Source: Patescibacteria group bacterium
GTDB taxonomy: Bacteria > Patescibacteriota > Patescibacteriia > Magasanikbacterales > GWA2-37-8
Length of the DNA: 64,000 nucleotides
Direction: 5' to 3'
Assembly: GCA_004321885.1 (NCBI GenBank)
Contig: SCQK01000004.1
Coordinates: forward strand, 22,684-86,683
The notes under the pieces were generated by a model, which worked only from the letters and a program-made list of their open reading frames with translations, ran no database searches and was not told where the DNA came from. Shown in pieces: positions 3,252-46,604 of the stretch (within the stretch, counting starts at the first letter, position 1; every line of letters starts with the position of its first letter). Position numbers and translations under genes: made by a program.

Positions 3252-3276
3252 ATTCCCCCGACTAAGTCGGGGGAAT
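3252..3276. repeat. Family-B hairpin ATTCCCCCGACTAAGTCGGGGGAAT overlapping the rplS ribosome-binding site (RBS) and first ATG
   Basis: A 10-bp perfect stem. The 3' arm GGGGGAA is the only SD-like sequence for rplS. Confidence 0.7.
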
Positions 3277-3619: not shown

Positions 3620-3628
3620 ATAAAAAAA

Positions 3629-3705
3629 CTGGCTCCATACTCTGTGTGGAGCCAGTTTGCAATACGGCTCCACAGCCCCGACTAAGTCGGGGACTATGGA
3701 GCCAG
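3629..3705. mobile_element. MITE-like family-B element with two stacked hairpins, in reverse orientation relative to the copies at 13683
   Basis: CTGGCTCCATACTCTGTGTGGAGCCAG + TTTGCAATAC + GGCTCCACAGCCCCGACTAAGTCGGGGACTATGGAGCC. It is the reverse complement of the 13683..13769 unit except for the central loop base. Confidence 0.7.
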
Positions 3706-3733
3706 CTACTGACCAGCGATTGGGAGCGGGATT

Positions 3734-11860: not shown

Positions 11861-13675
11861 ATGATTAGACAACATTCACGAGGACGGCATCAGCGCGCGC
11901 GACGCGCCTATAACACGCCGCCCAAAGAAGCGCCGGCGCAAAGCGCGAACGGCAAGCCAAATATTATCCGGCCCATCTACCAAAAGCCGTCGTTTTCGCG
12001 TTTCAAAAACGATGATTTGAAACTAAAAATCGCGGTCTTGGGCGGGCTGGAAGAAGTGGGTCGCAACTGCACTTTATTTGAATACGACGGCGATATTATT
12101 TTGGTTGACATGGGCCTGCAATTCCCCGAAGAAGATATGCCCGGCATTGATTACATCATTCCCAACATCGGCTATCTGAAAGGCAAGGAAAAAAATATCC
12201 GCGGGGTGATTATCACCCACGCTCACTACGACCACATCGGCGGCATACCCCACCTGATTCCGGCTCTCGGCTATCCCCCGATTTACGGCCTGCCGCTGAC
12301 GAACGCCATCATCAAAAAGCGCCAGGAGGATTACCGTGGCCTGCGGCCGCTAAACATTCATAATATAAATGTGGCTGATAAGTTGCAATTAGGAAATTTT
12401 GAACTGGAATTTTTTCACCTGAACCACAACATCCCCGATTCCATGGGCGTGGTGATTCGCACTCCAGAAGGCGTAGTGGTGCACACCGGCGACTGGAAAT
12501 TTGACTACCAACCGGCCGGCGAACAGCCCGCGGACTTGCAAAGAATAGCGTCCATCGGCAGTCAGGGCGTGCTGGCGCTTTTGTCCGACAGCACCAATGC
12601 CTCGTCCCCGGGCCACCAGATCTCCGAGTCCGAAATCCGCACCAATCTGGATGACATCATTGCCAAGGCCCCGGGCCGCATAATCATCGGCACTTTTTCT
12701 TCGCTCTTGTCGCGCATCAAGCAGATTATTGAAATCTCCGAAAAACTGGGCAAGGTGGTGGCCCTGGACGGCTTTAGCATGAAAAGCAACGTGGCCATTG
12801 CCAAAGAACTAAACTACATGCGATTCAGTCCCAAGACCTTGATTGACCTAAACCGCACGCGCGATTACCCGGACAACAAGGTGGTCATCGTGTGTACTGG
12901 CGCCCAGGGAGAAAAAAACGCTTCCCTAATGCGTATTGCCAGCGGCGAGCACCGCTTGATAGAACTGACGCCCGGGGATACGGTGGTGTTTTCTTCTTCG
13001 GTTATCCCGGGCAACGAGCGCACTGTTCAGCGCCTCAAAGACACTCTTTTTCGCAAAGGCGCCGAGGTGATTCATTACCAGATGATGGACGTGCACGCCG
13101 GCGGGCACGCCAAGGCCGATGACGTGAAGCTAATGATACGCCTGCTTTCGCCCAAGTATTTTATTCCCATTGAAGGCAACCACTTTTTATTGCACTACAA
13201 CGCCAAGGTGGCTGAAAGCATGGGCTTTCCCAAAGAAAATATTTTTATCGCCGACAACGGGCAAGTAATGGAATTTTTCCGCGGCGCCGGCCAGCTCACC
13301 AGAACCAAACTGCCGGCCGATTACGTGTTCGTGGACGGCCTGGGCGTGAGCGATGAAACCAACATTGTTTTGCGCGACCGGCAAGTCCTGGCCGAAGACG
13401 GCATGATTGTGGTGATAGCCACCGTGGACAGCAAAACCGGCAAGCTGGTGCAAAACCCGGATATTATTTCGCGCGGGTTTGTGTTTTTGAAAGAAAACAA
13501 GGAGCTGATAGAAGACCTGCGCCACCGCGTAAAAAAGCTGGTTACCGACAGCGACCCGCTTTCCTGGGCCGACACCAACAACATCCGCAACAAAATCCGC
13601 GACTATGTGGGACAATTTCTGTTTTCCAAAACCGAAAAACGCCCCATGGTGCTTCCAGTGGTGATAGAGGTATAA
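11861..13675 (+). CDS. rnj: Ribonuclease J (metallo-beta-lactamase / beta-CASP RNase)
   Basis: HAHYDHIGG motif, beta-CASP region, about 600 aa, with a basic N-terminal extension. Confidence 0.85.
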   Translation: MIRQHSRGRHQRARRAYNTPPKEAPAQSANGKPNIIRPIYQKPSFSRFKNDDLKLKIAVLGGLEEVGRNCTLFEYDGDIILVDMGLQFPEEDMPGIDYIIPNIGYLKGKEKNIRGVIITHAHYDHIGGIPHLIPALGYPPIYGLPLTNAIIKKRQEDYRGLRPLNIHNINVADKLQLGNFELEFFHLNHNIPDSMGVVIRTPEGVVVHTGDWKFDYQPAGEQPADLQRIASIGSQGVLALLSDSTNASSPGHQISESEIRTNLDDIIAKAPGRIIIGTFSSLLSRIKQIIEISEKLGKVVALDGFSMKSNVAIAKELNYMRFSPKTLIDLNRTRDYPDNKVVIVCTGAQGEKNASLMRIASGEHRLIELTPGDTVVFSSSVIPGNERTVQRLKDTLFRKGAEVIHYQMMDVHAGGHAKADDVKLMIRLLSPKYFIPIEGNHFLLHYNAKVAESMGFPKENIFIADNGQVMEFFRGAGQLTRTKLPADYVFVDGLGVSDETNIVLRDRQVLAEDGMIVVIATVDSKTGKLVQNPDIISRGFVFLKENKELIEDLRHRVKKLVTDSDPLSWADTNNIRNKIRDYVGQFLFSKTEKRPMVLPVVIEV

Positions 13676-13682
13676 ATAATCG

Positions 13683-13852
13683 CTGGCTCCATAGTCCCCG
13701 ACTAAGTCGGGGCTGTGGAGCCGTATTGCAAACTGGCTCCACACAGAGTATGGAGCCAGCGGGTGTAGAAAATCGCTGGCTCCATAGTCCCCGACTAAGT
13801 CGGGGCTGTGGAGCCGTATTGCAAACTGGCTCCACACAGAGTATGGGGTCAG
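13683..13852. mobile_element. Two tandem MITE-like family-B elements between the convergent genes rnj and ldh
   Basis: Unit 13683..13769 (CTGGCTCCATAGTCCCCGACTAAGTCGGGGCTGTGGAGCCGTATTGCAAACTGGCTCCACACAGAGTATGGAGCCAG) is repeated at 13776..13852 with a degenerate last arm. Confidence 0.8.
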
Positions 13853-13870
13853 CGAGCAAAGGGAGGGGTT

Positions 13871-15243: not shown

Positions 15244-15268
15244 AAACGCCCCTGTTAAGGGGGCGTTT
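15244..15268 (-). terminator. Rho-independent terminator of rnpB
   Basis: AAACGCCCC-TGTTAA-GGGGGCGTTT, followed on the minus strand by a U-rich tract (plus-strand AAACAAAAA at 15232..15243). Confidence 0.6.
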
Positions 15269-15269
15269 G

Positions 15270-15724
15270 TGGTTCATGGTTATAAGCCGAATTTTGTACC
15301 CCGACGTTACGTCGGGGCGATGTTCATTTCTCTGGTCTTGACATTGCTGTCAAAATCTTAGCGAGCGAACTTTTTATCCCGACTAAGTCGGGACTCTGCT
15401 CTTGCGCCAGACAGGGCTTGGCACTCTTCGACGTTGCCGCCGAAGGGAGTATGGTAGCTTTGGTCTCGAGAACCACAACTCCCATACACTTTTCACCTTT
15501 GACGAACCCCGACTAAGTCGGGGTGAACGTCCGCCTGTGGCGGACTCTCATGAATCGCTAGTATTGTCTCTGTGCCGCTTTCCCTACGCCGACGTTGCCG
15601 CCGACGTGGCGGGTGTTACCCGTTGCCTTTTTCTTTACCGGCTAGTTCCGCTAAGGGCGGACAGACGGAAAGGGCGTTCGGACTTTCCTTCCCGACTAAG
15701 TCGGGACGAACATCTGCCACGAAC
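15270..15724 (-). ncRNA. rnpB: RNase P RNA, bacterial type A
   Basis: Minus-strand RNA reads ..GGAAGGAAAGUCCGAAC.. (P4 5' strand), ..GGGUAACACCCGCC.., ..AGGUGAAAAGUG.., ..AUGAACAUCG-CCCCGACGUAACGUCGGGG-UACAAAAUUCGGCUUAUAACC.. (P15-P18 and P4 3' strand; compare E. coli AUGAAUGACUGUCCACGACAGAACCCGGCUUAUCGG). P1 is GUUCGUGG/CCAUGAAC. The ORF-track ORFs 15023..15361 and 15402..15731 lie inside it. Confidence 0.85.
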
Positions 15725-15730
15725 TGATTA

Positions 15731-15760
15731 AATGTAGCACAAAAACGCCGACTTGTCAAG
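15731..15760 (-). promoter_or_regulatory. Putative rnpB promoter (minus strand TTGACA-17-TACATT)
   Basis: Reverse-complement TTGACA at 15760..15755 and TACATT at 15736..15731, about 7 nt upstream of the predicted P1 5' end. Confidence 0.4.
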
Positions 15761-18335: not shown

Positions 18336-19529
18336 ATGCGCGTTGGCATTGATGTCAGGCCGCTGATGAATGACGTGCGCACCGGCATTGGCGAATACAC
18401 GCATTTTTTGCTGGACACTATTTTTGACATTGATAAAAAGAACGAATATTTTCTGTTTTACAACTCCGGCAAAGATGTCGGCGCCAATATTCCCCAGTGG
18501 ACGCAAAATAATATTCATTATGTCGCGAGCAGATGGCCCAATAAAATTTTCAACGCGTCCATAAAATTTTTCAACCGGCCGCGAATCAAAGAGGTGGACA
18601 TTTTTTTTTCTCCTAATCTCAACTTCACCGCCCTGTCGCCGAAAACAAAATTTATTCTCACGGTTCACGACTTGTCCTTTGAGCTGTTTCCGGAATTTTT
18701 TTCCGCCAAACAGCGGCTGTGGCACAAAATGATAAACCCGCGCAGACAATGCCAGCGGGCCGATATTATTATCGCGCCCTCTGAAAACACCAAGCGGGAT
18801 TTGAGGGAGATATATAATATAGAAGAGAAAAAAATAAAAGTGATTTACCCGGGAATATGTCATCCCGACCCGCCACAGGGCGGGGAGGGATCTCTGTTCA
18901 CGGCTGGCTCCATAATCCCCCCCACAGGGGTGGAGCTAAACTGCAAGCTGGCTCCACAGCCCGCCTTTGGCGGGATTATGGAGCCAGCCAATTCCAATCC
19001 CTACATCCTCTTCCTCGGCACCATTGAGCCGCGCAAAAATATTATCGGCCTGATAGAGGCGTTTGAAAAAGCCTGCCCCTCGCTCCCGGCGCCTTACACC
19101 CTCGTTATCGCCGGGGCCGCGGGCTGGAACAATAAACAGATTTACGAACGCGCCAAAAATTCCCCCATTAAAGATAAAATTAAAATTTTGGGATACGTGC
19201 GGCCGGAAGAAAAGCCGGCTCTGTATGCCGGCGCGGCCTTGTTTTGCTATCCCAGCATTTACGAGGGCTTTGGTTTTCCGGTTTTGGAAGCCATGTCCGC
19301 GGGGACTCCGGTTTTAACCTCAAACCGCTCTTCCCTGCCGGAAATAACGAGCGGCGCCGCGCACCTGGTAAATCCAAACAATGTTTCCGACATGGCCGCA
19401 GGCATAATAAACATTTTAACCAACGAAAAACTGCGCAATTTTTTGAAAGAAAAGGGCCAAGAGCAGGCCGCGAAATTTTTATGGCAAGAAGCGGCGGAAA
19501 AATTTTTAAGCGTTATTCGCTCTTTGTAA
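18336..19529 (+). CDS. Glycosyltransferase family 4 with an in-frame MITE-like (family-B-related) insertion
   Basis: GT4 motifs (LGTIEPRKNI, YEGFGFPVLEAMSAGTPVL). The roughly 30-aa insert SLFTAGSIIPPTGVELNCKLAPQPAFGGIMEPA is encoded by the repeat at 18903..18987. Confidence 0.8.
   Translation: MRVGIDVRPLMNDVRTGIGEYTHFLLDTIFDIDKKNEYFLFYNSGKDVGANIPQWTQNNIHYVASRWPNKIFNASIKFFNRPRIKEVDIFFSPNLNFTALSPKTKFILTVHDLSFELFPEFFSAKQRLWHKMINPRRQCQRADIIIAPSENTKRDLREIYNIEEKKIKVIYPGICHPDPPQGGEGSLFTAGSIIPPTGVELNCKLAPQPAFGGIMEPANSNPYILFLGTIEPRKNIIGLIEAFEKACPSLPAPYTLVIAGAAGWNNKQIYERAKNSPIKDKIKILGYVRPEEKPALYAGAALFCYPSIYEGFGFPVLEAMSAGTPVLTSNRSSLPEITSGAAHLVNPNNVSDMAAGIINILTNEKLRNFLKEKGQEQAAKFLWQEAAEKFLSVIRSL
18903..18987. 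repeat. Variant MITE-like element with CTGGCTCCA..TGGAGCCAG arms, inserted in frame in the GT4 gene
   Basis: CTGGCTCCATAATCCCCCCCACAGGGGTGGAGC + TAAACTGCAAG + CTGGCTCCACAGCCCGCCTTTGGCGGGATTATGGAGCCAG. It shares its outer arms with the units at 3629 and 13683. Confidence 0.75.
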
Positions 19530-45253: not shown

Positions 45254-45268
45254 CCCGACTCAGTCGGG
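45254..45268. repeat. Short family-B hairpin CCCGACTCAGTCGGG embedded in a larger inverted repeat (GGATGTGTTC..GAACACATCC, 45228..45312)
   Basis: Nested stem-loops that also include GAGGCCTC and CTTTTCCGCGCGCGAAAAG palindromes. Confidence 0.6.
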
Positions 45269-45332
45269 ATGGCCGAGGCCTCGCGGCCGAGGAAAGTGAG
45301 AACACATCCAGACGCGTGAGTCATTACAAAAA

Positions 45333-46604
45333 CTACATCACATCGTACGCGTGCATTGTTAATTGCGCGTCTATCTGCTTGGCGGTCTCAATGGCCACGG
45401 CCACCACGATAAGCAAACTGGTGCCGCCGATAACCAAATTCTGCGTACCCATGGCGCCCTGCAAAATCAAAGGCAAAATCGCGATAAGCCCCAAAAATAG
45501 CGCGCCTATTAAATTGATCCTGTTCATAGTAGCGCCCAGATACTTCTGGGTTTCATTGCCCGGCCTGATGCCCGGAATAAAGCCGCCCTGTTTCTGTAAA
45601 TTCTCGGCTATTTTTTGCGGATGAAATATCACGGCCGTGTAAAAATACGTAAAAGCGAAGACTAACAAGAAATAAGCCAGGCCGTAAAACAACTGGTTCT
45701 GAAATAAATTGATGGTGCCGGCGGCAACGCGCGCCAGCCAGGCGGTTTTAGCGGCCGTGAAAAATTGCGCTATCATGGGCGGAAACAGCACCAATGAAAT
45801 GGCAAAGATAATCGGAATCACTCCGGCCATATTGACGCGCAAGGGCAAATGGGTGGTGTTGCCGCCGTACATGCGGTTGCCGCGCACCTGCTTGGCGTAG
45901 TTTACCGGAATATTGCGCTGGCCCTCATTGATAAATACCACCCCTACCACGGTCAGAACAGCTATCAAAACAAACAGCACAATCATGTACAAATCCGCCG
46001 AAGTGTAATTGATGAAAACATTGCGCACCGCGCCGGGCAGGCCCGACACAATGCCGGCAAAGATTAAGAGCGAAATGCCGTTGCCCACTTTTTTTTCGGA
46101 AATCAGCTCGCCCAGCCACATCAAAAACATGGTGCCGGCCGTAATGGTAAGCATGATAATGACAAAACGCGCGACATTCAGGTCGGGCAGAACCGCGGCC
46201 GAGCGGTTGAGCAATTTGATGGTGGCGTAGGATTGCAGAAACGCCAGCGGCACGGTGAGAAAACGGGTGTACATGTTTATTTTCTGCTGGCCGCTTTCGC
46301 CTTCCTTGGACATCTCTTCCAACTTGGGCACTATCATGGTGAGCAACTGAAAAATAATGGAAGCCGTGATGTAGGGCCCCACGCCCAGCATGACAATGGA
46401 AAAATTTTCCATGGTGCCGCCGGAAAAAACATTGAGCAGGCCCAGGATTTGATTGCCGGCCAAAATGCGCCGCATGGCCGCCAGGTCAACCCCGGGAATG
46501 GGGATGTGGGCGACCAGCCTGAAAATAACGAGCAGGGCCAGCACGAACAGAATCTTGTTGCGGACGTCTTTTATTTTCCAAACTTGCAGAATTTTCTCCC
46601 ACAT
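45333..46604 (-). CDS. secY: Preprotein translocase subunit SecY
   Basis: 423 aa with 10 TM helices, starting MWEKILQVWKIKDVRNKILFVLALLVIFRL. Confidence 0.9.
   Translation of the reverse strand: MWEKILQVWKIKDVRNKILFVLALLVIFRLVAHIPIPGVDLAAMRRILAGNQILGLLNVFSGGTMENFSIVMLGVGPYITASIIFQLLTMIVPKLEEMSKEGESGQQKINMYTRFLTVPLAFLQSYATIKLLNRSAAVLPDLNVARFVIIMLTITAGTMFLMWLGELISEKKVGNGISLLIFAGIVSGLPGAVRNVFINYTSADLYMIVLFVLIAVLTVVGVVFINEGQRNIPVNYAKQVRGNRMYGGNTTHLPLRVNMAGVIPIIFAISLVLFPPMIAQFFTAAKTAWLARVAAGTINLFQNQLFYGLAYFLLVFAFTYFYTAVIFHPQKIAENLQKQGGFIPGIRPGNETQKYLGATMNRINLIGALFLGLIAILPLILQGAMGTQNLVIGGTSLLIVVAVAIETAKQIDAQLTMHAYDVM

What the first reader, a model, noticed from the sequence alone, without database searches (positions are those of the whole stretch)
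15270..15724. RNase P RNA on the minus strand, masked by spurious ORFs; four helices are capped by the same dispersed hairpin motif
- The minus strand carries the P4 strands (GGAAAGUCCGAAC / ACAAAAUUCGGCUUAUAACC) and a P15-P18 region closely matching type-A RNase P.
- P3-, P12/13/14- and P18-position stem-loops are CCCGACUUAGUCGGG three times and CCCCGACGUAACGUCGGGG once.
- The same palindrome forms the core of the MITE-like family-B elements elsewhere in the window.
- Identical peripheral hairpins in rnpB are unusual. They could be insertions of the mobile hairpin into tolerant helices, or a shared protein-binding module.
Basis: partly seen in the sequence, partly recalled or inferred. Interest (0 to 1): 0.75.

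Follow-up and report, generated by a model that had tools for sequence, protein, structure and literature searches.

The report
RNase P RNA capped by promiscuous hairpin
This is a genuine RNase P RNA gene from a Magasanikbacteria (CPR) genome in which four non-essential helix tips consist of one GC-rich palindromic hairpin that also recurs in terminators, small mobile repeats, 16S rRNA and pseudo-tRNAs of many uncultured bacteria, which suggests a hairpin "cassette" that repeatedly replaces helix tips in stable RNAs.

Summary
Rfam RF00010 matches window 15725-15267 (minus strand) over the whole model at 131.8 bits (gathering score 100), and the gene has its own promoter and terminator.

Three exact copies of (U)CCCGAC-UUA-GUCGGG(A) and one variant, CCCCGACG-UAA-CGUCGGGG, cap helices. 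The helix labels need correcting: the sites are P3, one branch of an expanded P12, the P16/17 position inside P15, and the P19 position. None is at P13, P14 or P18. The loops that make the known tertiary contacts (L9, L14, L18, all GCAA) are untouched.

The same palindrome occurs six more times in the window, four of them as the core of composite repeats.

Thirty-five relatives' rnpB genes carry the cassette patchily and at different positions, and unrelated hairpins occupy the same sites in the other species. It is the commonest perfect hairpin in 1 Mb of Magasanikbacteria DNA. Elsewhere it forms terminator stems, MITE cores, a helix at the helix-40 position of 16S rRNA, and the anticodon arm of pseudo-tRNAs next to GIY-YIG genes.

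Best reading: a palindromic cassette spread at the DNA level and tolerated only where the ribozyme allows any hairpin. The agent that spreads it is unknown. A shared RNA-binding role is not excluded. Interest is moderate.

The parts
15267..15725 (-). rnpB, bacterial type-A RNase P RNA (459 nt)
   Evidence: RF00010 131.8 bits, E 3.7e-40, full model 1-367. P4, P8, J11/12, J12/13, P9/P14/P18 GCAA loops read directly.
15731..15759 (-). sigma-70-like promoter of rnpB (TTGACA-17-TACATT, TG-extended), ending 5 nt before the predicted 5' end
   Evidence: Consensus scan, 10 of 12 matches. A consensus match only.
15244..15268 (-). intrinsic terminator of rnpB (AAACGCCCCC-UUAACA-GGGGCGUUU + U run)
   Evidence: sequence.
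15690..15706 (-). cassette copy 1, UCCCGAC-UUA-GUCGGGA, which is the whole of helix P3
   Evidence: Rfam alignment places it on the P3 pairs. The same P3 occurs in L017, L023, L034.
15502..15558 (-). expanded, bifurcated P12. The segment between the J11/12 and J12/13 anchors is 62 nt, against a median of 24.5 in relatives
   Evidence: Fold -31.3 kcal/mol, z -4.7; lengths. Relatives have a 6-7-bp P12 with a GNRA loop.
15506..15524 (-). cassette copy 2, ACCCCGAC-UUA-GUCGGGGU, the 3' branch of P12
15529..15545 (-). second recurrent GC hairpin, GUCCGCC-ACA-GGCGGAC, the 5' branch of P12
   Evidence: UCCGCC-type stems are the next most recurrent GC stems in the clade.
15377..15393 (-). cassette copy 3, UCCCGAC-UUA-GUCGGGA, the hairpin inside P15 (P16/17 position)
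   Evidence: The flanks GAGCAGAG / AUAAAAAGUUCGCUC are conserved in relatives. The same hairpin is in L011 and L015, and unrelated hairpins are in L012, L023, L051, L052, L053.
15299..15317 (-). cassette variant CCCCGACG-UAA-CGUCGGGG at the P19 position (between P2-3' and P4-3')
   Evidence: The canonical cassette occupies this position in L032, L035, L124, L152.
3252..3276 (+). dispersed copy: 11-bp hairpin AUUCCCCCGAC-UAA-GUCGGGGGAAU between gmk and rplS
3626..3706 (.). composite 'GGCTCCAYAG' palindromic element with the cassette as core (3677-3691), between convergent rplS and uvrA
13669..13854 (.). two tandem 93-nt composite elements with cassette cores (13697-13711, 13790-13804), between convergent RNase J and mdh genes
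   Evidence: one unit folds at -52.6 kcal/mol, z -8.5.
45109..45165 (.). half composite element with core CCCGAC-TGA-GTCGGG
45180..45320 (.). structured palindromic element downstream of secY carrying UCCCGAC-UNA-GUCGGGA (45254-45268)
   Evidence: No Rfam family matched.

Best explanation
**What it is.** The locus is a functional, self-contained rnpB gene encoding a type-A RNase P RNA of a Candidatus Magasanikbacteria (CPR) genome. Four of its peripheral helix tips are copies of one short perfect palindrome, (T)CCCGACT-N-AGTCGGG(A). As RNA this is a 7-bp GC-rich stem closed by a U-N-A triloop.

**How it most likely got there (inferred).** The palindrome behaves as a promiscuous hairpin cassette that spreads at the DNA level.
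- It is found solo, as the stem of intrinsic terminators, as the core of several unrelated MITE/REP-like elements, and in frame in coding linkers.
- It survives in stable-RNA genes only where any hairpin is structurally acceptable.
- In rnpB it therefore replaces P3, the P16/17 hairpin and P19, and extends P12.
- It is never found at P8, P9, P13, P14 or P18, whose loops or stems make the tertiary contacts of the type-A fold.

**What is shown.**
- The identity of the gene and the positions of the copies.
- That relatives carry different hairpins at the same sites.
- That the cassette occupies different sites in different species.
- Its over-representation and its range of contexts.

**What is inferred.**
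- That copying happens in DNA rather than being selected in RNA.
- That a sequence-specific agent keeps the 15-17 nt constant across lineages. The small GIY-YIG nucleases found next to cassette-bearing pseudo-tRNAs are one candidate. No such enzyme is encoded in this window.
- That within RNase P RNA the copies act as inert, stable helix caps.
For: **The gene**
- RF00010 at 131.8 bits over the whole model, with promoter and terminator.

**Excess over chance**
- 10 copies in the window against 0.02 expected.

**Not ancestral at each site**
- In 35 related rnpB genes the cassette is in about 9, at P3, post-P5, P12, P16/17 or P19.
- Between near-identical flanks, L011 has the cassette at two sites where L012, L051, L052 and L055 have unrelated hairpins.
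- L015, the closest rnpB, shares only the P16/17 copy.
- Carriers are scattered on a neighbour-gene tree.

**Sequence constancy**
- P18 stems differ in every species, whereas the cassette is invariant wherever it is present.

**Over-representation**
- It is the commonest perfect hairpin in 0.99 Mb of unbiased Magasanikbacteria DNA: 19 copies in 9 genomes, and the next most common has 7.
- 17 of 31 loose matches lie in rnpB, which is 1.65% of that sequence.

**Evidence for DNA-level behaviour**
- It is the core of composite elements in the window.
- A ~150-nt MITE with terminal inverted repeats carries it in 6 contigs.
- It lies inside long ORFs.
- Related palindromic elements are inserted in frame in a glycosyltransferase linker.
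- L125 rnpB carries UCCGCC-GAUGA-GGCGGA at P12 and the reverse-complement loop UCCGCC-UCAUC-GGCGGA at P16/17. The two RNA loops differ, while the DNA palindrome is the same in opposite orientations.
- All four central bases occur.
- Single arms alone are not enriched: 17 observed against 32 expected.

**Other contexts**
- The rnpB terminators of L017 and L023.
- 30 of 129 metagenomic copies have A or T runs beside them.
- 16S rRNA in L081 and L137.
- The anticodon arm of a tRNA or pseudo-tRNA next to GIY-YIG ORFs.

**Exclusion from contact loops**
- L9, L14 and L18 are GCAA in the window.
- No cassette copy was found at P8, P9, P13, P14 or P18 in any of the rnpB genes inspected.
Against: - No transposase, RAYT or GIY-YIG gene is present in the 64-kb window, so no mobilising enzyme is tied to this genome.
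- No target-site duplication or conserved insertion target was seen. Flanks show only a purine at -1 and a pyrimidine at +1.
- At P16/17 and P19, and by inspection at P3, the cassette replaces a helix of equal length. A simple insertion does not explain that.
- P3 and P19 in many relatives have a 'CCNGAC...GUCGG' flavour. Part of the pattern could therefore be old descent within rnpB.
- In relatives' ~20-kb loci the cassette is mostly in or beside rnpB rather than dispersed. That would also fit an RNA-level role.
- Relative to non-coding DNA only, the rnpB enrichment is modest, roughly 3-4 fold by my estimate.
Confidence: 0.57

Rival explanations
1. Shared RNA-level module. The hairpin would be the binding site, or folding clamp, for a trans-acting factor used by several stable RNAs (RNase P RNA, 16S rRNA, tRNA-like RNAs, mRNA ends). 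This would resemble the way archaeal L7Ae binds K-turns in rRNA, RNase P RNA and sRNAs. Its sequence would be kept constant by selection on the RNA.
For: - The 15-17 nt are invariant across species whose other rnpB stems all differ.
- The copies are strongly concentrated in rnpB in relatives.
- The hairpin is present in 16S rRNA and in tRNA-like genes.
- It replaces native arms length for length, for example the 17-nt anticodon arm.
Against: - The hairpin is a perfect A-form stem with a 3-nt loop, with no internal loop or K-turn to give a protein specificity.
- The central loop base is free: U, A, G and C all occur.
- A sister palindrome occurs in both orientations within one RNase P RNA (L125).
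- The site of the hairpin differs between species, and most relatives lack it altogether.
- It also lies in MITEs and inside ORFs.
- No candidate binding protein was identified.
Confidence: 0.2
2. Old rnpB hairpins homogenised within the gene. P3, P16/17 and P19 would be ancestrally 'CCCGAC-like' in Magasanikbacteria, kept identical by drift or short-patch conversion between copies. The genomic copies (terminators, MITE cores) would be derived from rnpB or coincidental.
For: - CCNGAC...GUCGG-like P3 and P19 stems are widespread in the clade.
- The P16/17 copy is shared by the window, L015, L011 and, as a variant, L035. These lie in more than one part of the neighbour-gene tree.
- A 34-nt stretch (hairpin plus the following A-rich/GUYCG segment) is 82% identical between the P3-P4 region and the P16/17-P15 region (family D9).
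Against: - The identical 17-mer occurs in more than 120 metagenomic contigs of GC 0.30-0.66, mostly unrelated to rnpB. These include Ignavibacteria/Bacteroidota-like tRNA clusters.
- A 15-nt homology is very short for recombinational conversion (established knowledge of RecA-dependent recombination).
- The P12 copy is clearly an addition.
Confidence: 0.12
3. Convergence. In AT-rich genomes, selection for very stable short hairpins would repeatedly arrive at the same GC-rich stem, with no copying and no specific factor.
For: - The hairpin is stable, at -10.1 kcal/mol for 17 nt.
- Other GC stems (UCCGCC, CCCGCC) also recur.
Against: - Thousands of equally stable 7-bp stems exist, yet one exact sequence has 19 copies against at most 7 for any other.
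- The UCCGCC family has no dominant loop, whereas this one does.
- Identity extends to the U...A closing the triloop and to the flanking U/A.
Confidence: 0.06

Closest known systems
Bacterial type-A RNase P RNA (Rfam RF00010); diverged CPR forms described by Lui et al. 2021 (PMC8172020)
   Same: - Full-length match above the gathering score.
- P1-P5, P7-P15 and P18 are present, both P4 strands are conserved, and L9, L14 and L18 are GNRA loops.
- As reported for many CPR RNase P RNAs, helices are extended or remodelled and the canonical L15 CCA-binding motif is not evident (PMC8172020).
   Different: - P16/P17/P6 are reduced to one hairpin, P12 is bifurcated, and there is an extra post-P5 region and a P19.
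- Four tips are the same repeated palindrome. The sections of that paper that I read do not mention such a feature.
STRR repeats inside the RNase P RNA gene of heterocyst-forming cyanobacteria (Vioque 1997, Nucleic Acids Res 25:3471; title seen in the reference list of PMC2858038; the paper itself is not held)
   Same: A genome-wide dispersed repeat family is found inside rnpB. From my own recollection, which I did not verify, the repeats extend helix P12.
   Different: - STRRs are short tandem repeats. Here the unit is a single palindromic hairpin.
- It is present at four different helices and replaces helices as well as extending one.
REP/BIME and REPIN elements, Neisseria Correia elements and Rickettsia palindromic elements (own knowledge, not checked here)
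   Same: - Short GC-rich palindromes are dispersed in intergenic DNA, often between convergent genes.
- They sometimes act as or sit beside terminators, are sometimes nested in larger MITE-like units, and occasionally lie in frame in proteins, as Rickettsia palindromic elements do.
   Different: - The unit is much smaller (15-17 nt) and is shared by several unrelated composite elements.
- It is concentrated in stable-RNA helix tips and found across distant lineages.
- No RAYT-type transposase is associated. The only recurrent neighbour is a small GIY-YIG ORF.
Archaeal L7Ae / K-turn system (own knowledge)
   Same: One RNA motif is shared by rRNA, RNase P RNA and other stable RNAs.
   Different: No K-turn or other irregular motif is present, no binding protein is known, and the site varies between species.

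Membership tests
Bacterial RNase P RNA, type A (RF00010) | Covariance-model score at or above the curated gathering score, over the full model | tested here: met
   131.8 bits against 100; model positions 1-367; E 3.7e-40.
Bacterial RNase P RNA, type A (RF00010) | Conserved P4 strands and J11/12, J12/13 core sequences | tested here: met
   AGGAAAGUCCGAAC, ACAAAAUUCGGCUUAUAA, CACAGAGACAAUAC and GGUGAAAAG align to the consensus.
Bacterial RNase P RNA, type A (RF00010) | GNRA loops L9, L14 and L18 for long-range contacts | tested here: met
   All three are GCAA in the Rfam alignment.
Bacterial RNase P RNA, type A (RF00010) | L15 GGU motif that pairs with tRNA 3'-CCA; P16/P17 with the P6 pseudoknot | tested here: not met
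   - The P15 interior is AGAGU-[hairpin]-AUAAAAAGUUC, with no GGU.
- The model's P16 pairs are flagged as non-canonical or absent.
- This is common in CPR (PMC8172020) and is not required for family membership.
Bacterial RNase P RNA, type A (RF00010) | Expression and pre-tRNA cleavage activity | not testable with these tools
   Only promoter-like and terminator-like sites are available.
REP/MITE-like dispersed palindromic repeats | Many dispersed copies, far above chance, mainly intergenic | tested here: met
   - 10 copies against 0.02 expected in the window.
- Top hairpin in 1 Mb of related DNA.
- More than 120 metagenomic loci.
REP/MITE-like dispersed palindromic repeats | Embedded in units with terminal inverted repeats found at unrelated sites | tested here: met
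   - Composite elements at 3626-3706, 13669-13854 and 45109-45165.
- A MITE with terminal inverted repeats in 6 contigs.
REP/MITE-like dispersed palindromic repeats | Target-site duplication or a defined insertion target | tested here: inconclusive
   Flanks of 123 copies show only purine at -1 and pyrimidine at +1. No duplication was seen.
REP/MITE-like dispersed palindromic repeats | Cognate transposase (RAYT, or a parent IS) in the genome | tested here: not met
   - None found in the 64-kb window. The rest of the genome is unavailable.
- GIY-YIG ORFs adjoin the cassette in other organisms.
STRR-type repeats in rnpB | Short tandem repeat units extending P12 | tested here: not met
   The P12 expansion consists of two different hairpins, not tandem repeats.
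Intrinsic terminator | GC-rich hairpin followed by a U run | tested here: not met
   - None of the four copies inside rnpB has a U run.
- The same hairpin with A and U runs is the rnpB terminator in L017 and L023.
DNA uptake sequence (DUS/USS) | Over-representation of the single motif, not only of inverted pairs | tested here: not met
   CCCGAC outside hairpins: 17 observed against 32 expected.
K-turn / L7Ae-type shared protein-binding module | Kinked helix with tandem sheared G.A pairs | tested here: not met
   The hairpin is a perfect 7-bp helix with a 3-nt loop.

The most novel reading that the evidence does not exclude
A previously undescribed 'hairpin cassette' system. One 15-17-nt palindrome would be actively written into the tips of helices in stable RNA genes (RNase P RNA, 16S rRNA, tRNA-like genes), into terminators and into MITEs across distant bacterial lineages. 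The writer would be a sequence- or structure-specific enzyme, with the small GIY-YIG nucleases found next to cassette-bearing pseudo-tRNAs as the leading candidate. Alternatively, the palindrome would be maintained as the docking site of a shared RNA-binding factor.
Probability: 0.15. Interest if true: 0.8.

Novelty: new variant of a known kind. Interest (0 to 1): 0.5.

Why it matters
**If the cassette is a selfish DNA palindrome**
- Essential ribozyme and rRNA genes in reduced CPR genomes would be remodelled by repeat invasion at exactly the helices that tolerate it.
- That would help explain why CPR RNase P RNAs are so divergent and hard to detect, with several relatives falling below the Rfam threshold.
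- It would also give a natural map of the dispensable helix tips.

**If the hairpin is kept for an RNA-level reason or moved by GIY-YIG nucleases**
- It would be a new kind of cross-RNA module or a new mobile-element mechanism.

**Practical consequence**
- Gene callers place ORFs over this rnpB.
- Annotation pipelines and covariance models for CPR would benefit from allowing for cassette-type helix replacements.

Tried and rejected
- **DNA-uptake-sequence idea.** Rejected: single arms are not enriched.
- **Phage origin.** Rejected: only one match in the viral contig collection.
- **Loop-orientation bias (UUA against UAA) as a test of RNA-level selection.** Abandoned. The motif is a perfect palindrome with a single central base, so UUA and UAA differ by one substitution and do not mark orientation.
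- **A genuine ochre-suppressor tRNA.** ARAGORN calls 'tRNA-Stop(tta)' in L112 and Rfam tRNA scores 47.5 bits. I consider this unlikely, because the loop would have C at position 33. The same hairpin also replaces anticodon arms in truncated tRNA copies.
- **Known RNA family in the secY-adk spacer.** An Rfam E-value search of 44800-45600 found nothing credible.
- **Recovering the source contig.** An exact-protein look-up of the neighbouring gene returned nothing on record.
- **Mobilising enzyme in the window.** Pfam on about 38 ORFs found only housekeeping genes.
- **CCGCC-type hairpins as a second fixed cassette.** They have no dominant loop, so this is a weaker pattern.
- **Literature.** The Vioque 1997 paper is not held. 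A full-text search for the hairpin sequence found no paper.
- **Rfam threshold in relatives.** L017, L032 and L035 carry both P4 strand motifs but do not reach the RF00010 gathering score.
Full report
**1. The gene**

A scan of the whole window against Rfam gives one match to bacterial type-A RNase P RNA (RF00010). It lies at 15725..15267 on the minus strand, scores 131.8 bits against a gathering score of 100, has E 3.7e-40, and covers model positions 1-367.
- Both P4 strands, P8 (ACGGGUAACACCCG), J11/12 (CACAGAGACAAUAC), J12/13 (GGUGAAAAG) and the three GNRA loops L9, L14 and L18 (all GCAA) are in place.
- A TTGACA-17-TACATT promoter ends 5 nt upstream of the predicted 5' end. A GC hairpin with a U run follows the 3' end.
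- The plus-strand ORFs that overlap the gene have no Pfam match.
- Neighbouring genes are housekeeping: RNase J, malate/lactate dehydrogenase and a sugar transferase.
- The sugar transferase retrieves 57 loci at 55-71% identity. Most are labelled Candidatus Magasanikbacteria or Patescibacteria, so the window comes from that CPR lineage.

**2. The hairpins**

CCCGACUUAGUCGGG occurs at 15705-15691, 15522-15508 and 15392-15378. CCCCGACGUAACGUCGGGG occurs at 15317-15299. The pattern CCCGAC-N(2-8)-GUCGGG is found 10 times in the window against 0.02 expected.

The Rfam alignment and folding place the four copies as follows.

| Copy | Position | Note |
|---|---|---|
| 1 | P3 | forms the whole helix |
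| 2 | P12 | one of two branches; the other is GUCCGCC-ACA-GGCGGAC |
| 3 | inside P15 (P16/17 position) | the only hairpin there |
| 4 | P19 position, between the 3' strands of P2 and P4 | the variant copy |

P18 is an ordinary GCAA-capped helix.

Relative to 18-33 related genes:
- The P12 segment is expanded, 62 nt against a median of 24.5.
- The P16/17 segment (22 nt against 29) and the P19 segment (19 nt against 23) are not expanded. There the cassette replaces a helix of similar size.

**3. Copies elsewhere in the window**

Six further copies exist.
- Four (3677, 13697, 13790, 45126) are cores of ~80-93-nt composite 'GGCTCCAYAG' palindromic elements that lie between convergent genes.
- One is an 11-bp hairpin between gmk and rplS.
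- One sits in a ~140-nt structured element downstream of secY.
- A fifth composite element (18895-18990) has different core hairpins. Together with a GTCATCCCGA...GAGGGATCTC element, it lies in frame in the inter-domain linker of a GT4 glycosyltransferase. Homologues carry other inserts at the same linker.
- No transposase, RAYT or GIY-YIG gene is encoded in the window.

**4. Relatives**

Thirty-five of the 57 loci contain an rnpB near the sugar-transferase gene. Six of ten tested pass the Rfam threshold. Nine of them carry the cassette (canonical in eight), and it occupies different sites in different species.

| Position | Loci with the cassette |
|---|---|
| P3 | L017, L023, L034; variant in L043 |
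| post-P5 hairpin | L011, L017 (relatives have a GNRA-capped hairpin here) |
| P16/17 | L011, L015; variant in L035 |
| P19 | L032, L035 |

Among the metagenomic contigs of section 5, L125 carries it at the post-P5 position, L067 at P12, and L124 and L152 at P19.

Further points:
- In the subclade L011/L012/L051/L052/L055 the flanks are nearly identical. The post-P5 and P16/17 hairpins are nevertheless unrelated in sequence, and only L011 has the cassette, at both sites.
- L015 has the rnpB closest to the window's. It shares only the P16/17 copy, with central base A instead of U. It has a simple 7-bp GAAA-capped P12 and unrelated P3 and P19 helices.
- On a neighbour-gene NJ tree the carriers are scattered. 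This is a single-gene tree and is not robust.
- Stems that are under structural constraint only, such as P18, differ in every species. The cassette is sequence-invariant wherever it occurs.
- No copy was seen at P8, P9, P13, P14 or P18 in any of these genes. From established knowledge of the type-A fold, L9, L14 and L18 dock on P1 and P8.
- L017 and L023 use the same hairpin, flanked by A and U runs, as the terminator of rnpB.
- L125 carries a different palindrome twice. UCCGCC-GAUGA-GGCGGA is at P12 and UCCGCC-UCAUC-GGCGGA is at P16/17, so the loops are reverse complements of each other. This is the signature of a DNA palindrome placed in both orientations, not of an RNA loop under selection.

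**5. How widespread and how special**

- In the unbiased 0.99 Mb (the window plus L001-L057), CCCGAC-TWA-GTCGGG is the commonest perfect hairpin, with 19 copies in 9 genomes. The next commonest has 7 copies and is the orthologous P8.
- 17 of 31 loose matches fall in rnpB, which makes up 1.65% of that sequence. Counted against non-coding DNA only, I estimate the enrichment to be a few-fold.
Most have GC 0.30-0.46 and a few reach 0.66. The viral collection holds one match.

Contexts of the metagenomic copies:
- 30 of 129 copies have A or T runs beside them, as terminators do, and many look bidirectional.
- Four are in rnpB genes.
- Two are in 16S rRNA genes (Rfam SSU hits). By comparison with the E. 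coli sequence from memory, they sit where helix 40 lies.
- One is the anticodon arm of a tRNA-like gene: Rfam tRNA 47.5 bits, called 'tRNA-Stop(tta)' by ARAGORN.
- Six contigs share a ~150-nt MITE with terminal inverted repeats that carries the cassette.
- Several lie in 'GTCATYSYGAG...GAAGSAATCT' palindromic elements.
- 15 lie inside stop-free stretches of at least 120 codons.

Other properties:
- Sixty per cent of copies have no further flanking complementarity.
- Position -1 is a purine in 76% of copies and +1 is a pyrimidine in 78%.
- Single arms are not over-represented.
- A full-text search found no paper containing the sequence.

**6. A recurrent neighbour**

Clustering of ORFs within 1.5 kb of the metagenomic copies gives small GIY-YIG proteins as the top family, in 6 loci. 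A database search with one of them confirmed Pfam PF01541.

The typical architecture is as follows.
- A complete tRNA comes first, for example tRNA-Gly(UCC) in the Tyr-Gly-Thr-Trp-secE-nusG cluster.
- The GIY-YIG ORF starts right after its 3' end.
- A partial copy of the tRNA follows, in which the 17-nt anticodon arm is replaced by TCCCGAC-TAA-GTCGGGA.

A protein-first sample gave these results.
- Three loci with the closest protein (P0001) had the exact cassette.
- More distant homologues had TCCCGC-CAAA-GCGGGA, or TCCCG-TTCAG-CGGGA together with a T arm replaced by TCCCGACACGTCGGGG.
- One had no pseudo-tRNA.

Source names of homologues point to Ignavibacteria, Bacteroidota and Chlorobi rather than CPR. 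The link is therefore real but partial. It is not demonstrated for the genome of this window.

**7. Interpretation**

The gene is an ordinary, if CPR-typical, RNase P RNA. Extended helices and a missing CCA-binding motif are already reported for CPR (PMC8172020).

The unusual feature is that four tips are one palindrome. The most economical reading is a promiscuous hairpin cassette that is copied at the DNA level and filtered by selection. The evidence for this reading:
- The site varies between species.
- The sequence stays identical while other stems drift.
- The central base is free.
- The related L125 palindrome occurs in both orientations within one rnpB.
- The cassette is found in MITEs and ORFs, and related palindromic elements lie in frame in a coding linker.
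- The cassette is excluded from tertiary-contact loops.

In rnpB the cassette would survive only as an inert cap at P3, P12, P16/17, P19 and the post-P5 hairpin.

What remains unexplained:
- How a native helix is replaced length for length.
- What keeps 15-17 nt constant across distant lineages.

I rate this explanation at about 0.55-0.6. The rivals are:
- a shared RNA-binding or folding module (0.2);
- old rnpB hairpins homogenised within the gene (0.12);
- pure convergence (0.06).

**8. Comparison and novelty**

The closest precedents are the following.
- The STRR repeats in cyanobacterial rnpB (Vioque 1997; only the title was seen).
- REP/REPIN, Correia and Rickettsia palindromic elements (own knowledge).

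This case differs in four ways:
- The unit is tiny.
- It is shared by several unrelated composite elements.
- It replaces helices at four positions of one ribozyme.
- It recurs in 16S rRNA and pseudo-tRNAs.

I class it as a new variant of a known kind, of moderate interest (0.5). A more novel reading is an enzyme-driven cassette-writing system or a cross-RNA docking module. The evidence does not exclude it, and I give it a probability of about 0.15.

Noticed in passing
window 18868-18990 (inside ORF 18336-19529): Two palindromic elements lie in frame in the inter-domain linker of a GT4 glycosyltransferase (about aa 178-219). They are a GTCATCCCGA-CCCGCCACAGGGCGGG-GAGGGATCTC unit and a GGCTCCAYA composite. 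Homologues L003, L004 and L012 carry other inserts at the same linker, which recalls the Rickettsia palindromic elements.
   Followed up: partly
window 3252-3276: An 11-bp hairpin, AUUCCCCCGAC-UAA-GUCGGGGGAAU, lies between the gmk stop codon and the rplS start codon. Its 3' arm covers the likely Shine-Dalgarno sequence GGGGGA, so it may control translation or processing of the L19 mRNA.
   Followed up: no
window 44412-45332: There is an unusual 920-nt gap between secY and adk. It holds a plausible plus-strand 92-aa ORF (44664-44942), a half composite element (45109-45165), and a ~140-nt structured element (45180-45320; -67 kcal/mol, z -3.9) that contains the cassette. No Rfam family matched.
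   Followed up: partly
window 38568-38631: DUF3800-II RNA (RF02961, 67 bits) lies next to a DUF3800 protein gene (38653-39195, minus strand). This is the known association for that motif.
   Followed up: no
window 5831, 11798, 26127, 26832, 42490, 47547: A second dispersed repeat family has six copies: CCTCCCCTTnTTAAGGGGAGG followed by GGAGGGGTA. It looks like a terminator hairpin with a conserved tail.
   Followed up: no
L179-L188, L087, L112, L132, L175: Small GIY-YIG ORFs start immediately after a tRNA gene, for example tRNA-Gly(UCC). A partial tRNA copy follows, with its anticodon arm (and in L184-187 also its T arm) replaced by CCCGAC-type hairpins. The unit is sometimes tandemly repeated. 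This may be a tRNA-targeting mobile cassette.
   Followed up: partly
L081 114-130; L137 8914-8930: The identical 17-nt hairpin lies inside 16S rRNA genes of low-GC contigs. By comparison with the E. coli sequence from memory it is at the position of helix 40.
   Followed up: partly
L112 6955-7028: This tRNA gene scores 47.5 bits with the Rfam tRNA model, and its anticodon arm is the cassette. ARAGORN reads it as tRNA-Stop(tta), but the loop would have C at position 33. A truncated copy next to a GIY-YIG ORF lies 390 nt away.
   Followed up: partly
L125 1033-1483: This rnpB carries the same palindrome twice with reverse-complement loops: UCCGCC-GAUGA-GGCGGA at P12 and UCCGCC-UCAUC-GGCGGA at P16/17.
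   Followed up: partly
L083, L126, L148, L078, L092, L166: A ~150-nt MITE with terminal inverted repeats TTGAGWCCACTCTAAAAAGTC carries the cassette internally. It sits at six unrelated sites in contigs of GC 0.30-0.34.
   Followed up: partly
window 15361-15394 vs 15674-15707: A 34-nt stretch comprising the cassette and the following A-rich/GUYCG segment is 82% identical between the P16/17-P15 region and the P3-P4 region of rnpB. This could be chance, or the trace of an internal duplication.
   Followed up: no
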